64,000 nucleotides of DNA, taken from assembly GCA_013822685.1 (NCBI GenBank), contig PNKV01000013.1, positions 13,095-77,094 on the forward strand. Reading direction: 5' to 3'. The notes below the pieces were generated by a model that was given only the letters and a program-made list of their open reading frames with translations, made no database searches and was not told where the DNA came from. Below are positions 33,101 through 56,030 of this stretch, piece by piece (positions within the stretch are counted from its first letter, which is position 1; every line of letters begins with the position of its first letter). The translations under genes were made by a program, and so were the position numbers. This stretch comes from Leptothrix sp. (in: b-proteobacteria). GTDB taxonomy: Bacteria; Pseudomonadota; Gammaproteobacteria; Burkholderiales; Burkholderiaceae_C.

Positions 33101-34525
33101 TCAGGGCTTGGGCGGCTCGGGCCGCGTATTCACGGGCCAGCAAAGCGCTGCCGTCATCAAGGCCAAGACCACGTGGATGATGTAAACCGGCTGGAAGTCG
33201 GCATGCTGAGCACTGCCATGGCCGATCAACACCACCGTGATCGCAACCCCCAACACCGAACCAATCTGGCGCGTGGCCTGGTTGACAGCGCTGCCCACCG
33301 CATAGTGCTGCGGTGGCAGCTTGTTCACGGCCGCGGCCGACAAGGAAGGCAGCACCATGCCCACCCCCACGCCGCTGAGCAGCAAGCCGGGCAACCAGTC
33401 GCGCAGGTAGTTCACCTCGGCCCCCGGCACCAGCAAGAACCACAGGCCGCTGGCCGCGTAGACCAAGCCACCGCCCACCAAAAAAGGCCGGTGCCCCAGG
33501 CGCCCTGCCAGCCGCCCGGTGATGATCGCCACTGGCATGACCAGCAAAGGCCCCGGGGTGATGGCCAGACCCGCGCGTGGCAAGGTGTAGTGCCACACGC
33601 CAGTCATGTAAAAAAAGAAGGCAAAGAACATCATGGAGAACGCGATGCCAAACGCCAGCGTCGCCAGGTTGACGTAGCTGTAGGTGCGGTGCCTGAACAG
33701 GCCCAGGTCCACCAAGGGCGCGGGCGTGAACCGGGCCCAGGCAATGAAGCCAATGAAAGCGATCACGCCTGTGGCGAAGGTCATCACCAAATCGGTTTGG
33801 TTCCAGTTGGGCGCATCCAACTGCACGATGCTCAAGGCAATGGTGCCCACCGCCACGATCAGCAGGCCCACGCCCACCATGTCAACGCGGCGCCGGGTGT
33901 CGGGGCGCACCGATTCGGTCAACCTGGCGGCGCCGCGCCACAAGGCGATCGCGCCCAGGGGCAGGTTCAGGTAGAAGGCCCACTGCCAACCCACGGCATC
34001 CACCACAAAGGAGCCCAAGCTGGGCCCGATGGCCGCCGCCAGGCCACCCACCGCGCCCCACAGACTGATGGCCACGGCGCGCTTGTCTTGTGGAAACGCC
34101 GCCAGCACGATGGACAAGGAGGCGGGCGTCAGCAAGGCGGCGCCAATGGCCTGCAATACACGCGCCGCGATCAGCCAGCCCACACTGCCCGACAAGCCGC
34201 AGGCCGCCGACGCTGCCAGGAACAGCACCACGCCAAACATGAACACACGCTTGCGCCCGTGAGCATCGGCCAGCCCGCCCGCAGGAATCAGCATCGCCGC
34301 GTAGACCACGGTGTAAGCATTGAGCACCCAAGACATGTCCGCGGCCGAGGCCTGCGGGAAGGCATTGCGCAGGGCGCCAAACGCCGCGAACAGCATGGTG
34401 CTGTCCAGCGAGACGAGGAACACCGCCACGCTGGCGATCCAGAAGACCGGCCATGGCGAGGCCGCCGGCGCTGAAGGGTGTGGCGGCACCACAGGGATGG
34501 CGGGTTGGCTGGCTGCTGAGCGCAT
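33101..34525 (-). CDS. MFS efflux transporter (DHA2, 14-TM type)
   Basis: LDSTM, WVLNAY, GGLADAHGRKR, ARVLQAIGAA, GPSLG, W.WAFYLNLP. Confidence 0.9.
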   Translation of the reverse strand: MRSAASQPAIPVVPPHPSAPAASPWPVFWIASVAVFLVSLDSTMLFAAFGALRNAFPQASAADMSWVLNAYTVVYAAMLIPAGGLADAHGRKRVFMFGVVLFLAASAACGLSGSVGWLIAARVLQAIGAALLTPASLSIVLAAFPQDKRAVAISLWGAVGGLAAAIGPSLGSFVVDAVGWQWAFYLNLPLGAIALWRGAARLTESVRPDTRRRVDMVGVGLLIVAVGTIALSIVQLDAPNWNQTDLVMTFATGVIAFIGFIAWARFTPAPLVDLGLFRHRTYSYVNLATLAFGIAFSMMFFAFFFYMTGVWHYTLPRAGLAITPGPLLVMPVAIITGRLAGRLGHRPFLVGGGLVYAASGLWFLLVPGAEVNYLRDWLPGLLLSGVGVGMVLPSLSAAAVNKLPPQHYAVGSAVNQATRQIGSVLGVAITVVLIGHGSAQHADFQPVYIIHVVLALMTAALCWPVNTRPEPPKP

Positions 34526-34552
34526 GGCGGTGGTCCTGTCAGGGTGGTGTGG

Positions 34553-35260
34553 TCAAGCGTCGGCCGGGGCCAGGTACACGCCAGGTTCGGCCGACAAACC
34601 TTGCTTGACCTGTTGGGTGAATTCATCGGCCAACACTTCGTCCGCACCGGCTTCCAGAGCATCGAAGGTGCGCGCCGCCACCACGCCAGGGGATGTCTTG
34701 GGCGCGTCAAAGCCGGCCGTCATGTCGGTGTCGATGAAACTTACGTGCAGGCCCAGCACCTGCGTGTTCTGCGGCCGCAACTCGTGGCGCAAGCCATTGG
34801 TCAGGCCCCAGGCTGCTGACTTGCTGGCGCTGTAAGCGCCCAACACCGGTGAGTTGATCCAGCTGAGCACGGACAGCACATTCACGATGGCGCCACCGCC
34901 ATTGGCGGCCAGAACGCCCGCGAAAGCCTGGCTCAACAGCAAGGGGCCAAAGAAATTGGTCTCCATGTGCGCGCGGGTGGACTCCACACTGTTGGCCGCC
35001 AGAAAGCCGCCCAAGTTGGCAATGCCCGCGTTGTTGACCAGCAAGGTGACGTCGCCCAATTCAGCGGCCACACGGGCCACATCGGCGGGGTTGGTCACGT
35101 CCAGCTTCACGGGGGTGACGCCAGGCAGGGTGACCGACGCGGGATCACGCGCACCGGCATACACCTTGCGGGCACCACGGGCCAGCGCCTCTTTGGCGAA
35201 TGCCAAACCCAGGCCCCGGTTGGCACCGGTGACAAGAACCACGGCGTTGTCGAGTTTCAT
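34553..35260 (-). CDS. SDR family oxidoreductase
   Basis: TGANRGLG, NNAG, YSASK. Confidence 0.93.
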   Translation of the reverse strand: MKLDNAVVLVTGANRGLGLAFAKEALARGARKVYAGARDPASVTLPGVTPVKLDVTNPADVARVAAELGDVTLLVNNAGIANLGGFLAANSVESTRAHMETNFFGPLLLSQAFAGVLAANGGGAIVNVLSVLSWINSPVLGAYSASKSAAWGLTNGLRHELRPQNTQVLGLHVSFIDTDMTAGFDAPKTSPGVVAARTFDALEAGADEVLADEFTQQVKQGLSAEPGVYLAPADA

Positions 35261-35277
35261 GCTGATGTCCTTAAATT

Positions 35278-35298
35278 TTTATGATGATCATCATATTT
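35278..35298. promoter_or_regulatory. Putative TetR operator, copy 1 (SDR promoter)
   Basis: TTTATGATGATCATCATATTT, containing a perfect 16-bp palindrome TATGATGATCATCATA. Confidence 0.8.
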
Positions 35299-35305
35299 TT
35301 GGGTT

Positions 35306-35343
35306 AAAAAAAAAGAGCCACCGGTTTATTCACCAGCCGGCTC
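35306..35343 (-). terminator. Intrinsic terminator after tetR
   Basis: GAGCCGGCTGGT-GAATAA-ACCGGTGGCTC hairpin (one bulge) followed by T9. Confidence 0.65.
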
Positions 35344-35913
35344 GTACTGCGTGATCAGGCTTTGGCGGTTGGCCTTGAGCAAGGCCTTGCCTTGGGCGTT
35401 GTCGCCCAATGCGCGGGCCATTTGCAAGGCGCCCACCATGGTGCTGGCAACCACCATGGCCGTGCTGGCCGGGGTGTTGGCGGGCAGCGCCCTTTTCACC
35501 AAGCTGACCATGCCCTGCACGCGCTGAGCCGAGGCCTCGCGCACTTCGGGCGCCTGCCGCGGCATTTCAGAGCACAAGGCCGCCACCGGGCAGCCATGCT
35601 CGGCACCGCTTAGATGCGCCTCTGACAAATAGGCTTCGACCAGGGCCCGGAACTCACTAACGCCCTGGGCTTGGCGCTCAGCCATGCGACGCCTCATGTG
35701 GGCCACGCCATCTTGGCCCGCGCGTTCAAGCGCCTCGACCAGCAAGGCGTTGCGAGAAGCGAAGTGGGCGTAGAAACCGCCGTGCGTGAGGCCGGCTTCT
35801 TTCATGATGTCGGCCACGCCCATACCCTGATAGCCCGCACGCCGGATGGCGCGCGCGGCGGTTTCGACTATGCGATCGTGGGTGGCTTCTCGGCGGCTGG
35901 GTTTCGCGTCCAT
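35326..35913 (-). CDS. TetR/AcrR family regulator
   Basis: N-terminal HTH: VADIMKEAGLTHGGFYAHF.S. Confidence 0.94.
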   Translation of the reverse strand: MDAKPSRREATHDRIVETAARAIRRAGYQGMGVADIMKEAGLTHGGFYAHFASRNALLVEALERAGQDGVAHMRRRMAERQAQGVSEFRALVEAYLSEAHLSGAEHGCPVAALCSEMPRQAPEVREASAQRVQGMVSLVKRALPANTPASTAMVVASTMVGALQMARALGDNAQGKALLKANRQSLITQYEPAGE

Positions 35914-35953: not shown

Positions 35954-36358
35954 TCAGTGCATGGCCTGCTGGGGGTCAACCGGCGTCTCGGTGTGCATGA
36001 CGCATTGCCAGCCTTTGCCGTCCCGCTGAATCCACGTGGAGGTGTCGTTCATTTCCTGCCGGATAGGCTCGCCTTTGCCCCGCGGCGCAATGGCCTGCTT
36101 CACGCGGTAAGTGAGGATCGCGGTTGCATCGTTTGGGAACACGACCTCCACATCGCTCAACTCAAAAGAGGTCACCACCATCGGTGCCTGCTCGGCCATC
36201 TCGCGATAGCCGGCGTGGTCGAACTTGATGGCGCCGTGCGATGAAACCATCAGCGCGGGTTCGCTCAGCATCTCCAAGGCGGTGTCCGTGTCCTGGTTGA
36301 TCATGGACTGCCAGAACTTCGTTTCAAGGTCGATCAGTGTCTTGGCGGGGGTTGGCAT
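35954..36358 (-). CDS. NTF2-like / DUF4440 family protein
   Basis: LETKFWQSM...D.AILTY.V...DTSTW.......WQCVMHTETP; RBS AAGGAG. Confidence 0.8.
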   Translation of the reverse strand: MPTPAKTLIDLETKFWQSMINQDTDTALEMLSEPALMVSSHGAIKFDHAGYREMAEQAPMVVTSFELSDVEVVFPNDATAILTYRVKQAIAPRGKGEPIRQEMNDTSTWIQRDGKGWQCVMHTETPVDPQQAMH

Positions 36359-36370
36359 GTCAAGCTCCTT

Positions 36371-36979
36371 TCAAGCAAATGCATGTTCGTCCTGCTGCCC
36401 TGCCAGGCGCAGAACGTAGCGACGGATGTCGTCAGGCCAGGCCTGCGCCAGGTCGGCCAATCGCGCGGCGTCATTGGCGAACAAGGCGCGGCTGGCCTCT
36501 TCAAAACTGGGCAAATTGCCTGCCAAGGCAGACATCGCCCGGTAAGCGGCTTCTTGCAACTGGCGCTTGCGCTCCTGCTCAGGCAAGGCGCGCCGCGCCT
36601 CTTCCACCAGCTTGCGCAGGGCCACCGAGGCGCCGCCCCGCTGGGCGTTGAGCCATTCCCAATGGCGGGGTAGCAAAGTCACCTCGCGAGCCACCACGCC
36701 CAAACGTGGCCGCCCACGGCCACGGGGCTCCAAGGTAGCCGCGTCGTCCGCCTCCAAGGCCGGCGCGCTTGGCGCTGGTTCAAGGCGCCGCAAGACGTCC
36801 TGGTCAGAACCTCGCAGGTCCAGATCAATGGGTGCGCCTGTGGCGTCGTTGAACACGAGGATCGAATCGACGGTGTCACCCGCTGCTTTCACAGCGAGTG
36901 CAACGTCACGAAGTGGGCCGGTGGCCAGCAGGCGGTGACCCACGAAGGCGGTGGCTAAATGGTTTGATGAATGTTCCAT
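36371..36979 (-). CDS. DUF2239 family protein
   Basis: TAFVGHRLLATG, VFNDATG..IDLDLRG, RGRPRLGVVAREVTLLPRHWEWL, AG.LP.FEEA.RALFA. Confidence 0.88.
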   Translation of the reverse strand: MEHSSNHLATAFVGHRLLATGPLRDVALAVKAAGDTVDSILVFNDATGAPIDLDLRGSDQDVLRRLEPAPSAPALEADDAATLEPRGRGRPRLGVVAREVTLLPRHWEWLNAQRGGASVALRKLVEEARRALPEQERKRQLQEAAYRAMSALAGNLPSFEEASRALFANDAARLADLAQAWPDDIRRYVLRLAGQQDEHAFA

Positions 36980-36986
36980 GCAAATA

Positions 36987-37033
36987 ATATTACCCGGATA
37001 AAATGCACAAGTCAATTAAACCCGGGTAAATTT
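36987..37033 (-). promoter_or_regulatory. Leaderless sigma70 promoter of DUF2239 with two candidate operator boxes
   Basis: TTGACT (37015-10)-N17-TAATAT (36992-87)-N7-ATG; boxes ACCCGGATAAA (36992) and ACCCGGGTAAA (37020). Confidence 0.7.
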
Positions 37034-37045
37034 ATTCGGCGACCC

Positions 37046-37258
37046 TCAAGACAGCTGTGGATGGAAGCCTTGCTCCTGAATGGCCATCAGGACGGCCTTC
37101 TCGGGTTGCGTGGTGACCACGTCCACAAACCCTTGCTGCAGGTCGAACTGCACCAAGGCGGTCGGGTCTAGCCTCTGGATGGCCTGGGTCACCTTTTGCA
37201 CACATTGCGGGCCCGCGAGGTCACGGACATTCACATGGACTTCTGAACCAATGGTCAT
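37046..37258 (-). CDS. Small HMA/CopZ-like protein with degenerate metal motif
   Basis: 70 aa, RBS AAGGAG, CV..VTQAIQ.LDP.A.VQ.DL...V.V......V..AIQEQGF pattern; GPQC in place of CxxC. Confidence 0.65.
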   Translation of the reverse strand: MTIGSEVHVNVRDLAGPQCVQKVTQAIQRLDPTALVQFDLQQGFVDVVTTQPEKAVLMAIQEQGFHPQLS

Positions 37259-37423
37259 GGTCTTGCTCCTTCTGGGTTGATCTCAAGAACGCTTTTGGCG
37301 TGCTCGACTTTCCTTGTCGACCTTTTCACGCGTACCGTCAAGACAAGGCCTCACAGAGGGTTGGGCGATATCATTCCGGGCCGCTTGATTTGTCTTTCTT
37401 CAACCCAATTTCTGGACACCGCC

Positions 37424-37780
37424 ATGCCCTACATGTTGATGATCGTTGAGCCCGTTGGGCAACGGCTCACCCGCACGGAAGCCCAAGGCCGCGAAGCGTA
37501 TGCCAGCATGGTTCGCTTTGGTGCCGACTTGAAGGAGCGTGGGCTGCTGCTGGCCAGCGAATCTTTGCAATCCCAGAATGGCGCCGCGCGCGTGGCAGTG
37601 CGAGACGGCCAGCGCCGCGTGTTGGATGGCCCCTTCGCCGAAGCCAAAGAGATGATCGGCGGCTTCTTCTTGCTGGATTGCCAGACCCGTGATGAGGCCA
37701 TTGCGATTGCCGCGCAATGCCCGGCGGCCGAATGGTGCGAGATCGAAGTGCGCGCCCTCGCCCCCTGCTACGAAGACTAA
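37424..37780 (+). CDS. YciI/DGPF family protein
   Basis: VLDGPFAEAKEMIGGFF, IEVR. Confidence 0.92.
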   Translation: MPYMLMIVEPVGQRLTRTEAQGREAYASMVRFGADLKERGLLLASESLQSQNGAARVAVRDGQRRVLDGPFAEAKEMIGGFFLLDCQTRDEAIAIAAQCPAAEWCEIEVRALAPCYED

Positions 37781-37797
37781 AAATTGTGCAAGGCGGG

Positions 37798-37824
37798 TGT
37801 CGAACCCGTGTCGCCTGGTTCGTC
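37798..37824 (+). promoter_or_regulatory. Putative ECF42-type promoter
   Basis: TGTCGA-N17-CGTC upstream of the second YciI gene; resembles the ECF42 motif as I recall it. Confidence 0.55.
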
Positions 37825-37881
37825 GTGTGAATGAAGGCCTGAAGTGGCCTGAGGGATACACGGCAAATCAGGAGCATTCAG

Positions 37882-38238
37882 ATGCGATTCATGATCATGG
37901 TGAAATCGACACCCGACGGTGGCGCCGGCCTCATGCCCGATGAGGACCTGTTCGCCTCGATGGCCCAGTACCACGCGCAACTGGCCAAGGCTGGCGTGCT
38001 CCTGGACGCATCGGGTTTGCAGCCTTCGTCCACCGGCTGGCAGGTGCGCTATGGCGCCAGCGGCCAAGGCACAGTGCTTGATGGCACGCCCACCGGCCAC
38101 CAAACGCAGTTGGCTGGCTACGCGCTGATCGAGGTGCGCTCACGCGCGGAAGCACTGGAATGGTCGCGGCGGTTTCCAGCCCCGGTGGGCAATGGCATGG
38201 GGGCCGAGATCGAGGCCCGCCAGCTTCACGAACATTGA
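37882..38238 (+). CDS. Second YciI/DGPF family protein (DGTP variant)
   Basis: MRFMIMVK, AGVLLDASGLQPSS.G..VR, AGYALIEVRSRAEALEWSRRFP. Confidence 0.88.
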   Translation: MRFMIMVKSTPDGGAGLMPDEDLFASMAQYHAQLAKAGVLLDASGLQPSSTGWQVRYGASGQGTVLDGTPTGHQTQLAGYALIEVRSRAEALEWSRRFPAPVGNGMGAEIEARQLHEH

Positions 38239-38252
38239 GCAAGGAGCACAAC

Positions 38253-38783
38253 GTGGTCAAAACCATCCTCATCGTGGCCGCCGTGGGCGTGGTCGCCTTG
38301 CTGGCTTACGCCGCCAGCAAGCCCGACACCTTCACCATCCAGCGCAGCGCCAGCATCAAGGCGCCGGCCGCCAAGCTGCATCCACTCATCAACGACCTGC
38401 ACCAGTTCAACACCTGGAACCCCTACAACCTGAAGGATCCCGCCATCAAGGGCGCCTACCGCGGGCCGGCGGCAGGGCCTGGCGCGCATTACGACTTCGA
38501 GGGCAACAAGGATGTCGGCAAGGGCAGCATTGAAGTCACCGCCTCGGCGCCCGACAAGGTCTCGATGCGGCTGGACATGATCGAACCTTTCGAGGGCCAC
38601 AACCAGGTCGAGTTCACGCTGGCAACGGTGGCCGAAGGCACCCAGGTGACCTGGGCCATGCACGGCGCCGCACCATTCATGTACAAGCTGGCGGGCATCT
38701 TCATCAACATGGACCAGATGATGGGCCGCGACTTCGAAGCCGGCCTGGCCAACCTGAAAACCAAAGCGGAGCAAACATCATGA
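38253..38783 (+). CDS. SRPBCC (polyketide cyclase-like) protein
   Basis: GTG start after AAGGAG; KPDTF.IQRS..I.A, WNP, GNKDVGKG, DFEAGLANLK. Confidence 0.85.
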   Translation: MVKTILIVAAVGVVALLAYAASKPDTFTIQRSASIKAPAAKLHPLINDLHQFNTWNPYNLKDPAIKGAYRGPAAGPGAHYDFEGNKDVGKGSIEVTASAPDKVSMRLDMIEPFEGHNQVEFTLATVAEGTQVTWAMHGAAPFMYKLAGIFINMDQMMGRDFEAGLANLKTKAEQTS

Positions 38784-39193
38784 GCCGTCAGATCTTCGTC
38801 AACCTGCCCGTCCGCGACCTGGACAAGACCAAGGCATTTTTCAGCAGCCTGGGCTTTGGCTTCAACCAGCAGTTCACCAACGAGCAGGCGGCCTGCATGG
38901 TCATCTCGGAAGACCACAGCTACGTGATGCTGCTGGTCGAAGACTTCTTCAAGAGCTTCATCCGCAAGTCGTTGGCCGATGCGCACCAAAGCACCGAGGT
39001 GCTGCTGTGCTTGTCGTGCGACAGCCGCGCCGAGGTCGACGAGATGGTGGCCAAGGCCATCGCCGGTGGCGGCAAGGCCTCCAAGGAGGCGAAGGACCAC
39101 GGCTTCATGTACGAGCATGGCTTTGAAGACCTGGACGGCCACCTCTGGGAGGTGATGCACATGGACATGAGTGCCGCACCGCCCCAGTTCTGA
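38780..39193 (+). CDS. VOC/glyoxalase family protein
   Basis: IFVNLPV.DL, FEDLDGHLWE. Confidence 0.92.
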   Translation: MSRQIFVNLPVRDLDKTKAFFSSLGFGFNQQFTNEQAACMVISEDHSYVMLLVEDFFKSFIRKSLADAHQSTEVLLCLSCDSRAEVDEMVAKAIAGGGKASKEAKDHGFMYEHGFEDLDGHLWEVMHMDMSAAPPQF

Positions 39194-40485
39194 TGACATC
39201 GGCCACGCACCAAGCCATCGAGGCGGTCTGGCGCATCGAATCGGCCAAGATCATCGCGGGGGTCGCGCGCATGGTGCGCGACATCGGCCTGGCCGAAGAG
39301 CTCGCGCAAGATGCCCTGGTCACGGCACTGGAGCACTGGCCCAGTTCAGGCGTGCCCGACAACCCGGGCGCCTGGCTCATGACCACGGCCAAGAACCGGG
39401 CCCTTGACCGATTGCGGCGGGCCAAGATGATCGAGGGCAAGCTGCAAGAGCTTGGCCATGATCTGCAAGCCCAGGAGGCCTTGATCGTGCCTGATTTCGT
39501 GGACGCGCTGGATGCTGCCCGGGCCGACGAGATCGGCGACGATTTGCTGCGGCTGATCTTCACCGCCTGCCACCCGCTGTTGTCCACGCAGGCGCGTGCG
39601 GCACTCACCTTGAAGCTGCTGGGCGGGCTGACCACCGACGAGATCGCCCGGGCTTTTCTGGTGTCCGAACCCACGATCGCGCAGCGCATCGTCCGCGCCA
39701 AACGCACGCTGACGGCGGCCAAGGTGCCTTTCGAAGTGCCGCGCGGCGAAGACCTGGCGCAACGCCTGGCCTCCGTCCTGGAGGTGGTTTACCTGATCTT
39801 CAACGAGGGCTACACCGCCACCCGCGGCGAAGACTGGATGCGCCCTGCCCTGTGCGACGAAGCCCTGCGACTGGGCCGCATGCTGGCCGAGCTGGCACCC
39901 CATGAGGCCGAGGCGCATGGGCTGATCGCCTTGATGGAACTGCAGGCATCGCGGGCGGCCGCCCGGGTGGATGCATCGGGCAAGCCGGTCTTGCTGATGG
40001 ACCAGGATCGCGCCCGTTGGGACCACCTGCTGATCCGGCGTGGGCTGAACGCGCTGGCCCGTGCCGAAGCGCTGGCCGAATCAACGGGGCAAGCCCTGGG
40101 CCCCTACGCCCTTCAAGCCTCGATCGCGGCCTGCCATGGCCGGGCCCGCACCGCCGGTGAGACCGATTGGGCGCGCATTGCCGCCTTGTACGACGCCCTG
40201 GCCCAGGCCGCGCCCTCGCCGGTGGTGGAGCTGAACCGGGCGGTGGCGGTGGGCATGGCCTTCGGGCCGGCCGCAGGCCTGCAGATCGTGGATGAGTTGC
40301 GAGAGGACCCCTCACTGCAGGGCTACCAATGGCTGCCCAGCGTGCGCGGCGACTTGCTGGCCAAGCTGGGCCGCACCGCAGAAGCCTGCGCGGAGTTCGA
40401 GCGCGCGGCCGAACTGGCGGGCAATGCGCGCGAGCGTGAGTTACTGCTGGAGCGTGCCCGGGCTTTGGGGCCGGACCTGCCTTGA
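39193..40485 (+). CDS. ECF sigma factor with C-terminal TPR-like extension (ECF42-like)
   Basis: WRIES, AEELAQDA, WL.TTAKNRALD, DDLLRLIF.ACHP, GGLTT.EIARAFLV.E.TIAQRIVRAK, YQLQA-type C-terminal region; next to DGPF genes. Confidence 0.9.
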   Translation: MTSATHQAIEAVWRIESAKIIAGVARMVRDIGLAEELAQDALVTALEHWPSSGVPDNPGAWLMTTAKNRALDRLRRAKMIEGKLQELGHDLQAQEALIVPDFVDALDAARADEIGDDLLRLIFTACHPLLSTQARAALTLKLLGGLTTDEIARAFLVSEPTIAQRIVRAKRTLTAAKVPFEVPRGEDLAQRLASVLEVVYLIFNEGYTATRGEDWMRPALCDEALRLGRMLAELAPHEAEAHGLIALMELQASRAAARVDASGKPVLLMDQDRARWDHLLIRRGLNALARAEALAESTGQALGPYALQASIAACHGRARTAGETDWARIAALYDALAQAAPSPVVELNRAVAVGMAFGPAAGLQIVDELREDPSLQGYQWLPSVRGDLLAKLGRTAEACAEFERAAELAGNARERELLLERARALGPDLP

Positions 40486-55854: not shown

Positions 55855-56030
55855 ACCACTAAGCGGGGTCGTGAGTGACCTCCCTGTTCATACGCTGGCA
55901 TAAAGCATGCATCCGAGGTTGGCTCGGGAGACATGTCGTGACCAGCCAACTTGAACGGCGCTTGCAGCCCCGCTCTCTGCCAGACACCTTCACCCGGATT
56001 GAAATTACCCGGGTGAATGCACGCGTGCCC

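What the first reader, a model, noticed from the sequence alone, without database searches (positions are those of the whole stretch)
36371..37033. DUF2239 looks like an undescribed ribbon-helix-helix autorepressor with a readable operator
Seen: a near-consensus leaderless sigma70 promoter with two near-palindromic boxes, ACCCGGATAAA in the spacer touching -10 and ACCCGGGTAAA just upstream of -35, 28 bp apart. The protein carries RGRPRLGVVAREVTLLPRHWEWL...GGASVALRKLVEEA. Known: the RGRP + beta-strand + two-helix pattern is typical of RHH/BrnA-like DNA-binding domains. Inference: DUF2239 binds (A/T)TACCCGGGTAAA-like sites, represses itself and the downstream NTF2-like gene, and may sense a ligand through its other domains.
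Basis: partly seen in the sequence, partly recalled or inferred. Interest (0 to 1): 0.68.

Follow-up and report, generated by a model that had tools for sequence, protein, structure and literature searches.

The report
Conserved twin operator of DUF2239 regulator
A protein family of unknown function (DUF2239) almost certainly encodes a self-regulating DNA-binding repressor: the same pair of short palindromes clamps the promoter of its gene in at least seven bacterial phyla. The proposed ribbon-helix-helix fold could not be confirmed.

Summary
ACCCGGATAAA (36992-37002) and ACCCGGGTAAA (37020-37030) lie 28 bp apart on a TTGACT-17-TAATAT promoter on the minus strand. The promoter ends 7 nt before the ATG (36979) of a 202-aa DUF2239 gene.

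The decisive evidence is comparative. All 80 homologous loci, from at least seven phyla, carry the motif aTTTT-ACCCGGGT-AAtA at the promoter of the DUF2239 unit: 75 of 78 have two boxes close upstream, and two have the pair ~610-635 bp upstream, ahead of an inserted gene. One box abuts the -35 and one overlaps the -10. Only one other hit occurs in 510 kb. DUF2239 is the only gene common to these loci. In the window's own 4.2-Mb genome this promoter holds the only strong sites.

DUF2239 is therefore very probably an autoregulator, most likely a repressor, of its own transcription unit. Here that unit includes the DUF4440 gene 12 nt downstream.

The DNA-binding part is probably the near-invariant centre: a GRP arm, an extended stretch, a short helix, GGAS, then a long helix. 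This centre also exists as free-standing 70-88-aa proteins.

The ribbon-helix-helix fold is not shown. Pfam, PDB and Foldseek give nothing, and hhalign P is 0.012-0.056 (same-method control 1e-6). No publication mentions the family. It is a worthwhile, directly testable new transcription-factor family, but a conventional kind of switch.

The parts
36371..36979 (-). DUF2239 coding sequence (202 aa plus stop); proposed autoregulator
   Evidence: ORF and translation. Pfam PF09998 at E = 1.5e-75, covering residues 10-193.
36590..36730 (-). Central, near-invariant module (residues 84-130): GRP arm, extended stretch LGVVAREVTLL, helix PRHWEWLNAQ, turn RGGAS, then the start of a long helix. Proposed DNA-binding domain.
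   Evidence: Conservation in alignments A1 and A2. AlphaFold secondary structure. The same module exists as free-standing 70-88-aa proteins.
36704..36724 (-). RGRGRPR arm (residues 86-92); G-R-P is invariant. AT-hook-like; proposed to read the flanking A/T tracts through the minor groove (inference).
   Evidence: Invariant G89, R90 and P91. Conserved T-tract and A/T-rich flanks on each side of the core.
36782..36958 (-). N-terminal alpha/beta domain (residues 8-66), function unknown; candidate sensor or oligomerisation domain
   Evidence: AlphaFold model with pLDDT about 87-94. No fold match. Missing from the free-standing short variants.
36395..36577 (-). C-terminal helical domain (residues 135-195), function unknown; candidate sensor or oligomerisation domain
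   Evidence: AlphaFold model with pLDDT about 94. Conserved FEEAxRALFA and WPxDI motifs.
36977..36979 (-). ATG start codon, 7 nt downstream of the -10 hexamer (leaderless geometry)
   Evidence: The same 6-7-nt geometry occurs in the congener L147 and in six other loci.
36987..36992 (-). -10 hexamer TAATAT
   Evidence: Promoter scan. A conserved TAtAAt sits at the same offset from box 2 in homologs.
36988..37003 (.). Operator box 2 (core ATCCGGGT on the minus strand, 36992-36999), overlapping the spacer and the first base of the -10
   Evidence: It scores 32.1 bits on the position-weight matrix, the best site in the 4.2-Mb genome.
37010..37015 (-). -35 hexamer TTGACT
   Evidence: Promoter scan. 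The best hexamer is TTGACA or TTGACG in 46 of 72 homolog loci, and the spacer is 17 bp in 47 of 72.
37016..37031 (.). Operator box 1 (core ACCCGGGT, 37020-37027), ending 4 bp upstream of the -35
   Evidence: It scores 25.3 bits, the second-best site in the genome.
35954..36358 (-). DUF4440 (NTF2-like) gene. It starts 12 nt after the DUF2239 stop codon and has its own AAGGAG ribosome-binding site. Probably co-transcribed cargo.
   Evidence: Pfam PF14534 at E = 2.7e-16. Not conserved next to DUF2239 elsewhere.

Best explanation
**What it is.** DUF2239 is a sequence-specific DNA-binding protein that controls the promoter of its own transcription unit.

**How it most likely works.**
- Two copies of a roughly 16-bp palindrome (consensus TTTT-ACCCGGGT-AAAA) are built into a near-consensus sigma-70 promoter.
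- Box 1 ends 4 bp upstream of the -35. Box 2 fills the end of the spacer, and its right arm is the -10 itself.
- A dimer on each box would block RNA polymerase, so the protein acts as an autorepressor.
- An unknown signal, probably received by the N-terminal alpha/beta domain or the C-terminal helical domain, would release it. That would derepress DUF2239 and whatever cargo follows.
- In this window the cargo is the DUF4440 gene, on what is probably a leaderless mRNA. Elsewhere it is MatE efflux pumps, DsbA-like proteins, FMN or ApbA-type reductases, and divergent glutathione transferases.

**Proposed DNA-reading head.** It is the near-invariant central module.
- I infer, but have not shown, that it is ribbon-helix-helix-like. 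A two-stranded ribbon would sit on the dyad and read CCCGGG in the major groove.
- The two invariant G-R-P arms would lie in the adjacent A/T minor grooves.

**Status of each step.**
- Shown: the boxes, the promoter geometry, and their strict and specific association with the gene.
- Inferred: binding by DUF2239, repression, the fold, the role of the arms, and the signal.
For: **Association of the motif with the gene**
- The motif pair lies upstream of 73 of 81 DUF2239 genes on a strict first pass. Spacing is 26-30 bp, mostly 27 or 28.
- With a position-weight matrix, 153 hits of at least 14 bits fall within 160 bp upstream of the gene, against 5 elsewhere in 510 kb.
- Four of those five are the box pair in L017 and L026, placed in front of an AAA_33 gene inserted ahead of DUF2239. 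So 80 of 80 loci carry boxes at the promoter of the unit.
- Loci not used to build the matrix (L003, L017, L026, L037, L049, L060, L061, L070, L147-L150) also carry the boxes.
- The loci come from at least seven phyla by record title: Pseudomonadota, Chloroflexota, Acidobacteriota, Planctomycetota, Armatimonadota, Myxococcota and Desulfovibrio-type.

**DUF2239 is the only constant**
- Neighbouring genes vary between loci.
- The gene is patchy, present in 4 of 25 genomes of the genus.
- In the 41 relatives the box-plus-TTGAC pattern occurs next to the gene in 4 of 5 genomes that have it. It occurs in 1 of 36 that lack it (Fisher p = 2.4e-4).

**Local regulon**
- In the window's own genome the two promoter boxes score 32.1 and 25.3 bits; the next best site scores 18.8.
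- The other pattern hits look like chance matches in GC-rich sequence without AT-rich flanks or a second box.

**Repressor geometry**
- TTGACA-17-TAtAAt is conserved at fixed offsets from the boxes. A promoter this close to consensus needs no activator.

**The central module as the DNA binder**
- It is the most conserved part of the protein.
- It exists alone as 70-88-aa proteins. Two of three such lineages keep box 2 at the promoter: 30.8 bits in L111 and L112, 20.4 bits in L113.
- In two separate 50%-identity cluster representatives, DUF2239 forms the C-terminal part (residues ~409-590 of ~595) of a protein with serine-recombinase (Resolvase and Recombinase) domains.

**Ribbon-helix-helix-like features**
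- The layout is an extended stretch, a short helix, a G-G-A-S turn with invariant Ser, then a helix.
- Information in the operator peaks at the central CCGG on the dyad. That suits a reader sitting on the dyad, as with MetJ on its 8-bp palindromic metbox (established knowledge), rather than two separated helix-turn-helix half-sites.
- BrnA-family RHH proteins fetched here also carry an RGRP arm a few residues before the strand.
- hhalign places DUF2239 on RHH_1 and BrnA in the expected register.
Against: **No direct evidence.** There are no binding or expression data.

**The fold is not established.**
- Pfam finds only DUF2239.
- PDB sequence and profile searches find nothing.
- Foldseek finds nothing for the full model or the 56-residue module.
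- hhalign P values of 0.012-0.056 are not significant, whereas the same method links RHH_1 to BrnA at E = 1e-6.
- AlphaFold monomer models leave residues 70-97 at low confidence and predict no strand. No dimer model could be run.
- Helix A is short, about 9-10 residues. From memory it is about 12-15 in Arc, CopG and MetJ.

**Other weak points.**
- The 27-28-bp spacing puts the two boxes on different faces of the helix, so cooperative binding is not obvious.
- One short-variant lineage (L114, L115) has no recognisable box.
- The matrix was trained on the same upstream regions it then scores. Its specificity rests on the absence of hits elsewhere and on the loci that were left out.
Confidence: 0.75

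Rival explanations
1. The operator and autoregulation are as described, but the DNA-binding module is not a ribbon-helix-helix. It would be a new or very divergent fold: a GRP minor-groove arm plus a helical hairpin, helix-turn-helix-like or otherwise.
For: - Every database test for RHH membership failed or was non-significant.
- The RHH_1 versus BrnA control shows that the method can detect true RHH relationships.
- AlphaFold predicts no strand.
- Helix A is unusually short.
Against: - Operator information is highest at the dyad itself. That is hard to reconcile with two helix-turn-helix recognition helices.
- The classic helix-turn-helix positions 8 and 10 would be Arg and Gly rather than hydrophobic residues (read from the sequence).
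- The G-x-S turn, the module size and the free-standing 70-88-aa forms fit RHH repressors.
- Both hhalign alignments fall in the structurally correct register.
- An RHH strand forms only in the dimer, so a monomer model cannot show it.
Confidence: 0.35
2. DUF2239 binds the boxes but acts as an activator or dual regulator, for example by recruiting polymerase from box 1 near -44, rather than as a simple repressor.
For: Box 1 is centred near -43/-44, a position some activators use. The direction of regulation has not been measured.
Against: - The -35 and -10 hexamers are near consensus and conserved, so activation is not needed.
- Box 2 overlaps the spacer and the -10 in every locus, which is the classic position for steric repression.
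Confidence: 0.1
3. The boxes are bound by some other host factor, or are a promoter element such as an UP-like or extended motif. DUF2239 would not be the DNA-binding partner.
For: Binding by DUF2239 has not been shown. The A/T-rich flanks could in part act as UP-element or -10 sequence.
Against: - A separate factor would have to travel with DUF2239 through at least seven phyla and a patchy distribution within the genus, yet no other gene is conserved in the loci.
- The window's own genome has no other strong site for such a factor to act on.
- The GC palindrome is not a known part of a sigma-70 promoter.
- The pattern is absent from 35 of 36 related genomes that lack the gene.
Confidence: 0.05

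Closest known systems
MetJ repressor and its metbox (ribbon-helix-helix; established knowledge, not tested here)
   Same: - The DNA unit is an 8-bp palindrome (AGACGTCT in MetJ, ACCCGGGT here) read on its dyad.
- Repeated boxes lie over the promoter.
- The protein is larger than a minimal RHH, and a small molecule modulates it (SAM for MetJ; an unknown signal is proposed here).
   Different: - MetJ boxes are contiguous tandem repeats with cooperative dimer-dimer contacts, whereas here the boxes are 26-30 bp apart.
- There is no detectable sequence or profile similarity.
- DUF2239 has an N-terminal domain and a long C-terminal helical domain.
- A/T-tract flanks and a GRP arm are not MetJ features.
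Arc, Mnt, CopG and omega type autoregulated RHH repressors (Pfam RHH_1 and clan Met_repress)
   Same: - A small module with a strand-helix-helix layout and a G-x-S/T turn.
- Autoregulation through operators that overlap the -35 and -10.
- Free-standing 70-88-aa DUF2239 forms are of similar size.
   Different: - hhalign against an RHH_1 profile gives only P = 0.016, with no Pfam or Foldseek match.
- Helix A is shorter.
- In most members the module sits in the middle of a three-domain protein.
BrnA-type antitoxins (Pfam PF14384), which have a C-terminal RHH
   Same: - Many members fetched here carry an (R/K)RGRP arm a few residues before the RHH strand.
- Helix A is short, followed by a Gly-rich turn.
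- hhalign aligns the arm, strand and helix A in register.
   Different: - The match is not significant (P = 0.012-0.056).
- Pfam BrnA_antitoxin does not hit DUF2239.
- No BrnT-like toxin partner is present, and the neighbouring genes are variable detoxification or efflux genes.
NikR and PutA-type regulators (an RHH fused to sensor or enzymatic domains)
   Same: A DNA-reading RHH is joined to extra domains that receive the signal. NikR-like and PutA-like RHH sequences were among the RHH_1 hits in related genomes.
   Different: - In those proteins the RHH is N-terminal; here the module is central.
- The flanking domains have no recognisable fold or ligand.
AT-hook (core R-G-R-P; HMGA proteins, bacterial CarD; established knowledge)
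   Same: An invariant G-R-P is flanked by Arg, Lys and Gly. It lies next to a DNA target with conserved tracts of four or more A/T base pairs.
   Different: Here a single arm would act as an accessory to a folded DNA-binding module. Minor-groove binding is only inferred.

Membership tests
Pfam DUF2239 (PF09998) | Match to the family model above the gathering score | tested here: met
   E = 1.5e-75, 253.5 bits against a cut-off of 25, covering residues 10-193.
Ribbon-helix-helix superfamily (MetJ/Arc, Pfam clan Met_repress) | Detectable sequence or profile similarity to a recognised RHH family | tested here: not met
   - Pfam scans of the module and of 36 diverse members find only DUF2239.
- hhalign against RHH_1 gives P = 0.016 and against BrnA P = 0.012-0.056.
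- The RHH_1 versus BrnA control gives probability 91% and E = 1.2e-6.
Ribbon-helix-helix superfamily | Strand-helix-helix fold resembling solved RHH structures | tested here: inconclusive
   - AlphaFold monomers show an extended stretch followed by H104-111 and H116 onward, but no strand. Residues 70-97 have low confidence.
- Foldseek against the PDB finds no match.
- The strand of an RHH forms only in the dimer, and no dimer model could be run.
Ribbon-helix-helix superfamily | G-x-S/T/N turn that caps helix B | tested here: met
   The G-G-A-S turn has invariant Ser118 and nearly invariant Gly115 across diverse members.
Ribbon-helix-helix superfamily | Obligate intertwined dimer whose two-stranded sheet enters the major groove | not testable with these tools
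   This needs a multimer prediction or a structure. Indirect support only: operator information peaks on the dyad.
Autoregulated promoter-occluding repressor | Specific operator sites overlapping the core promoter of the regulator's own gene, conserved among orthologs | tested here: met
   80 of 80 loci carry boxes at fixed offsets from the -35 and -10. There are 153 hits upstream against 5 elsewhere in 510 kb.
Autoregulated promoter-occluding repressor | Binding of the protein to the sites and repression of transcription | not testable with these tools
BrnA antitoxin (PF14384) / BrnT-BrnA toxin-antitoxin pair | Match to the BrnA model and an adjacent BrnT-like toxin gene | tested here: not met
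   There is no Pfam hit. The neighbours are DUF4440 and an HMA-like gene here, and MatE, DSBA, GST and others elsewhere.
AT-hook | R-G-R-P core flanked by basic residues | tested here: met
   The sequence is P-R-G-R-G-R-P-R. G-R-P is invariant and the next residue is Lys or Arg.
AT-hook | Minor-groove binding to A/T tracts | not testable with these tools
   This is only consistent with the data: conserved TTTT and A/T-rich flanks lie about 4.5-7.5 bp from the dyad.
Leaderless mRNA | Transcription start at or within a few nucleotides of the start codon, and no Shine-Dalgarno sequence | tested here: inconclusive
   - The -10 ends 7 nt before the ATG and no Shine-Dalgarno sequence is present.
- The same 6-7-nt geometry occurs in the congener and in six other loci.
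- The transcription start was not mapped.

The most novel reading that the evidence does not exclude
DUF2239 founds a large, unrecognised family of bacterial one-component regulators.
- The searches found at least 8000 clusters at 90% identity (search-capped) and 1808 representatives at 50% identity, in at least seven phyla.
- The reading head would be a hybrid: a dyad-centred ribbon for CCCGGG plus two AT-hook-like GRP arms in the flanking minor grooves, one of which lies on the -10 hexamer itself.
- The protein, its near-consensus promoter and the twin operator move between phyla as one self-contained cassette. That cassette captures varied detoxification and efflux cargo such as MatE pumps, glutathione transferases, DsbA-like proteins and reductases.
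- It responds to a still unknown small-molecule signal without using cysteine chemistry. The protein in this window has no Cys.
Probability: 0.3. Interest if true: 0.72.

Novelty: new variant of a known kind. Interest (0 to 1): 0.55.

Why it matters
- **A function for an unknown family.** DUF2239 is widespread and has no assigned function. No paper in the searchable library mentions it. This result gives it a concrete, cheaply testable role as a transcription factor, with a defined 16-bp operator and a defined promoter architecture.
- **A handle on its regulated genes.** It identifies the genes likely under its control in hundreds of genomes: MatE efflux pumps, glutathione transferases, DsbA-like proteins and reductases. 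That points to an uncharacterised xenobiotic or stress response.
- **A possible genetic tool.** The repressor, operator and promoter unit is compact, nearly identical across phyla and confined to its own locus. That would make it an attractive orthogonal switch.
- **A possible new way of reading DNA.** If the GRP-arm-plus-ribbon mode is confirmed, it would be an unusual combination of an AT-hook-like element with a ribbon-helix-helix.

Tried and rejected
**Searches that found nothing**
- Sequence search of the PDB with the whole protein and with a profile of the central module.
- Foldseek of the full-length model and of the 56-residue module against the PDB.
- Pfam and PHROGs scans of the module and of 36 diverse members at E up to 10: only DUF2239. 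NCBIfam on the whole protein: no family.
- A search for short proteins resembling the module, meant to find bridging RHH families. It returned only DUF2239 fragments and free-standing variants.
- Literature searches for DUF2239, PF09998, IPR018715 and the operator sequence. The operator hits were only cloning primers.
- A PDB profile search for a solved BrnA-type structure.

**Searches that were uninformative or unavailable**
- Profile-profile comparison with RHH_1 and BrnA alignments built from related genomes was not significant.
- A loose paired-box pattern across 201 genomes of the order gave mostly chance hits in GC-rich DNA. I replaced it with the stricter box-plus-TTGAC pattern.

**Ideas considered and rejected**
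- A toxin-antitoxin module: there is no conserved partner gene.
- A global regulon in this genome: the next-best sites score at most 18.8 bits and look like chance.
- Thiol-based redox sensing: the protein has no cysteine.
- DUF4440 as the conserved target: it is absent even in the congener.
Full report
**1. What is in the window**

The finding covers a minus-strand gene, 36979 to 36371, encoding a 202-aa protein. The protein matches Pfam DUF2239 at E = 1.5e-75 over residues 10-193.

Read on the minus strand, the upstream sequence is AATAAATTTACCCGGGTTTAA-TTGACT-tgtgcaTTTTATCCGGG-TAATAT-tatttgc-ATG.

The window has 2 matches against 0.01 expected from shuffles.
- The promoter scan reports TTGACT, a 17-bp spacer and TAATAT at 37015 to 36987.
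- Box 2 occupies the end of the spacer, and its last base is the first T of the -10. Box 1 ends 4 bp before the -35.
- The ATG follows the -10 by 7 nt and has no Shine-Dalgarno sequence.
- Conservation of the protein starts at residue 10, and the only other in-frame start lies inside the -35. The ATG is therefore the start codon and the layout is that of a leaderless mRNA.

**2. Comparative test of the operator**

A scan of one genome per species gave 80 loci encoding relatives that are 50-65% identical. By record title they include Pseudomonadota, Chloroflexota, Acidobacteriota, Planctomycetota, Armatimonadota, Myxococcota and Desulfovibrio-type genomes.

Printing the 120 nt upstream of each gene showed the same architecture almost everywhere.

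- In 73 of 81 loci (the 80 plus the window) a strict rule found two CCGG-centred boxes. They are 26-30 bp apart, mostly 27 or 28.
- The consensus for box 1 is aTTTT-ACCCGGGT-AATA-TTGACA. For box 2 it is ATTTT-ACCCGGGT-AtAAt.
- Each box is thus a roughly 16-bp palindrome with a GC core and A/T arms. The -35 and -10 sit at fixed offsets from the boxes.
- The best -35-like hexamer is TTGACA or TTGACG in 46 of 72 loci, and the spacer is 17 bp in 47 of 72.

An 18-column position-weight matrix gave 153 hits of at least 14 bits within 160 bp upstream of the genes. Only 5 hits fell elsewhere in 510 kb. Four of those five are a perfect pair in L017 and L026. There the pair sits in front of an AAA_33 kinase-like gene inserted between the promoter and DUF2239. 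Every one of the 80 loci therefore has the boxes at the promoter of the DUF2239 unit.

Loci left out of the matrix also carry the boxes. So do four further relatives fetched later (L147-L150), which have two sites each and nothing else in 3.5 kb.

**3. Specificity**

- In the window's own 4.2-Mb genome the two promoter boxes are the top sites, at 32.1 and 25.3 bits. The next site scores 18.8, and the remaining hits look like chance matches in GC-rich sequence without AT-rich flanks or a second box.
- The gene is patchy, present in only 4 of 25 genomes of the genus and 5 of 41 relatives.
- The pattern AYCCGGRTNWWWTTGAC occurs next to the gene in 4 of those 5 genomes. It occurs in 1 of the 36 without the gene (Fisher p = 2.4e-4).
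- Neighbouring genes differ between lineages: MatE pumps in about 26 loci, often with overlapping start codons; DsbA-like proteins in 13; divergent glutathione transferases in at least 20; and also FMN reductase, ApbA-type reductase and others.

DUF2239 is the only constant. The simplest reading is that it binds the boxes itself.

**4. Direction of regulation**

The hexamers are close to consensus and conserved, so the promoter needs no activator. Box 2 covers the spacer and the -10 in every locus, and box 1 flanks the -35. This is the standard geometry of a steric repressor.

In this window the DUF4440 gene starts 12 nt after the DUF2239 stop codon and has its own AAGGAG. No convincing terminator lies between them, so it is probably co-transcribed. 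It is not a conserved partner. The congener with a 78%-identical DUF2239 lacks it. That congener does keep the upstream HMA-like gene, both boxes and a 6-nt gap between the -10 and the ATG.

Six other loci share the 6-7-nt leaderless geometry. In most of the remaining loci the start codon lies 23-37 nt after the -10.

**5. Which part binds DNA**

- The centre of the protein is almost invariant across diverse members: GRP(K/R)LGVV.(R/K)E(V/I)TLLPRHW.WL..Q.GGAS..LR.LV.
- It also exists alone. Many clusters of 70-88-aa proteins consist of a disordered N-terminus plus this module.
- In L111, L112 and L113 such genes sit between a divergent glutathione transferase and an ApbA gene, with no room for the missing domains. 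They keep box 2 on the promoter, at 30.8 and 20.4 bits. A third lineage (L114, L115, followed by MatE) has only a degenerate remnant.
- Two separate cluster representatives carry DUF2239 as the C-terminal part (residues ~409-590 of ~595) of a protein with serine-recombinase (Resolvase and Recombinase) domains. Other fusions carry GNAT or ACT domains.

**6. Is it a ribbon-helix-helix?**

In favour:

- The layout is an extended stretch, a helix (104-111), a G-G-A-S turn with invariant Ser, then a helix from 116 onward.
- The size of the free-standing forms fits RHH repressors.
- Operator information peaks at the dyad. That suits a two-stranded ribbon on an 8-bp palindrome, as in MetJ with its metbox (established knowledge).
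- BrnA-type RHH proteins from related genomes also have an RGRP arm shortly before the strand and a short first helix.

Against:

- Pfam, PHROGs, PDB sequence and profile searches, and Foldseek all find nothing.
- hhalign gives P = 0.016 against an RHH_1 profile and 0.012-0.056 against BrnA profiles. The alignments fall in the right register, but the same procedure links RHH_1 to BrnA at E = 1.2e-6.
- AlphaFold monomers predict no strand and give low confidence for residues 70-97. This is expected if the strand forms only in a dimer, but no dimer model could be run.

I therefore treat the fold as an inference with roughly even odds. It is not a demonstrated membership.

**7. The GRP arm**

G-R-P is invariant and sits in a basic, Gly-rich stretch. 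That is the core of an AT-hook.

The conserved TTTT and A/T flanks lie about 4.5-7.5 bp from the dyad. At that distance the minor groove faces the same side as the central major groove. A ribbon on CCCGGG with one arm in each flanking minor groove is geometrically coherent, and for box 2 one arm would lie on the -10 itself. This is inference only.

**8. The flanking domains and the signal**

The N-terminal alpha/beta domain (residues 8-66) and the C-terminal helical domain (135-195) are confidently modelled but match nothing. The cargo genes suggest a detoxification or efflux response. The protein has no cysteine, so thiol chemistry is unlikely. The signal remains unknown.

**9. Literature and earlier notes**

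No paper in the library mentions DUF2239, PF09998 or IPR018715.

I consulted earlier notes of this scan only after my own comparative analysis. They report the same twin-operator architecture in other genomes and reach the same conclusion. They are AI notes and not independent evidence.

**10. Verdict**

The operator pair is real, highly specific and deeply conserved. DUF2239 is very probably an autorepressor of its own promoter. The RHH fold, the role of the arm, the leaderless start and the signal remain to be tested.

This is a new family of a familiar kind of switch. It is worth a bench test but not a conceptual surprise.

Noticed in passing
window 37046-37258 (-): A 70-aa HMA-fold (CopZ-like) gene lies directly upstream of the DUF2239 promoter, and its stop codon is 15 bp from box 1. 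It scores below the family cut-offs and has a single Cys (GPQC) in place of the CxxC metal site. It is conserved at 88% identity in the same position in a congener (L147).
   Followed up: partly
window 55992-56014: Two weak boxes, ACCCGGAT and ACCCGGGT, lie 15 bp apart in what may be an intergenic stretch. The matrix score is 17.0 bits, and they lack the A/T flanks and the TTGACA. This is probably chance, but it is the only other double box in the genome.
   Followed up: partly
window 33101-35913 (-): Downstream on the same strand lie a TetR-family regulator (35326-35913), a short-chain dehydrogenase (34553-35260) and a 474-aa membrane protein that looks like an MFS transporter (33101-34525). 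The TetR gene starts 40 nt after DUF4440, and a terminator-like hairpin follows it at about 35320-35337. Read-through from the DUF2239 promoter into TetR is possible.
   Followed up: no
window 37277-40485 (+): Two YCII-domain genes (about 37425-37780 and 37882-38238) are followed by three further ORFs. The last (39193-40485, 430 aa) looks by eye like an ECF-type sigma factor with a C-terminal extension. It was not scanned.
   Followed up: no
P0139, P0235 (protein ids; metagenomic): Two separate cluster representatives, 598 and 593 aa, fuse serine-recombinase Resolvase and Recombinase domains to a complete C-terminal DUF2239. Other fusions carry GNAT, ACT or DUF1330 domains after DUF2239.
   Followed up: partly
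L111 2501-2737, L113 2501-2767, L114 2501-2713: Free-standing 70-88-aa genes consist only of the central DUF2239 module. Many clusters of them exist. Two lineages keep box 2 alone at the promoter, and one (followed by MatE) has lost recognisable boxes.
   Followed up: yes
L017 and L026, about 610-636 bp upstream of DUF2239: In two Polaromonas-like genomes an AAA_33 P-loop kinase-like gene sits between the twin-operator promoter and DUF2239, as if captured at the front of the operon.
   Followed up: partly
L021, L037, L061 (Achromobacter): The two boxes are about 57 bp apart instead of 26-30. A TTGACA follows the first box and a second promoter-like stretch lies near the second. This is unexplained and may reflect two promoters.
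   Followed up: no
L019, L022, L070, L074 (divergent gene, about 111 aa): A small conserved gene with no Pfam hit lies divergent from DUF2239 in four alphaproteobacterial loci. Earlier scan notes call it GIY-YIG-like. It shares the operator region.
   Followed up: no
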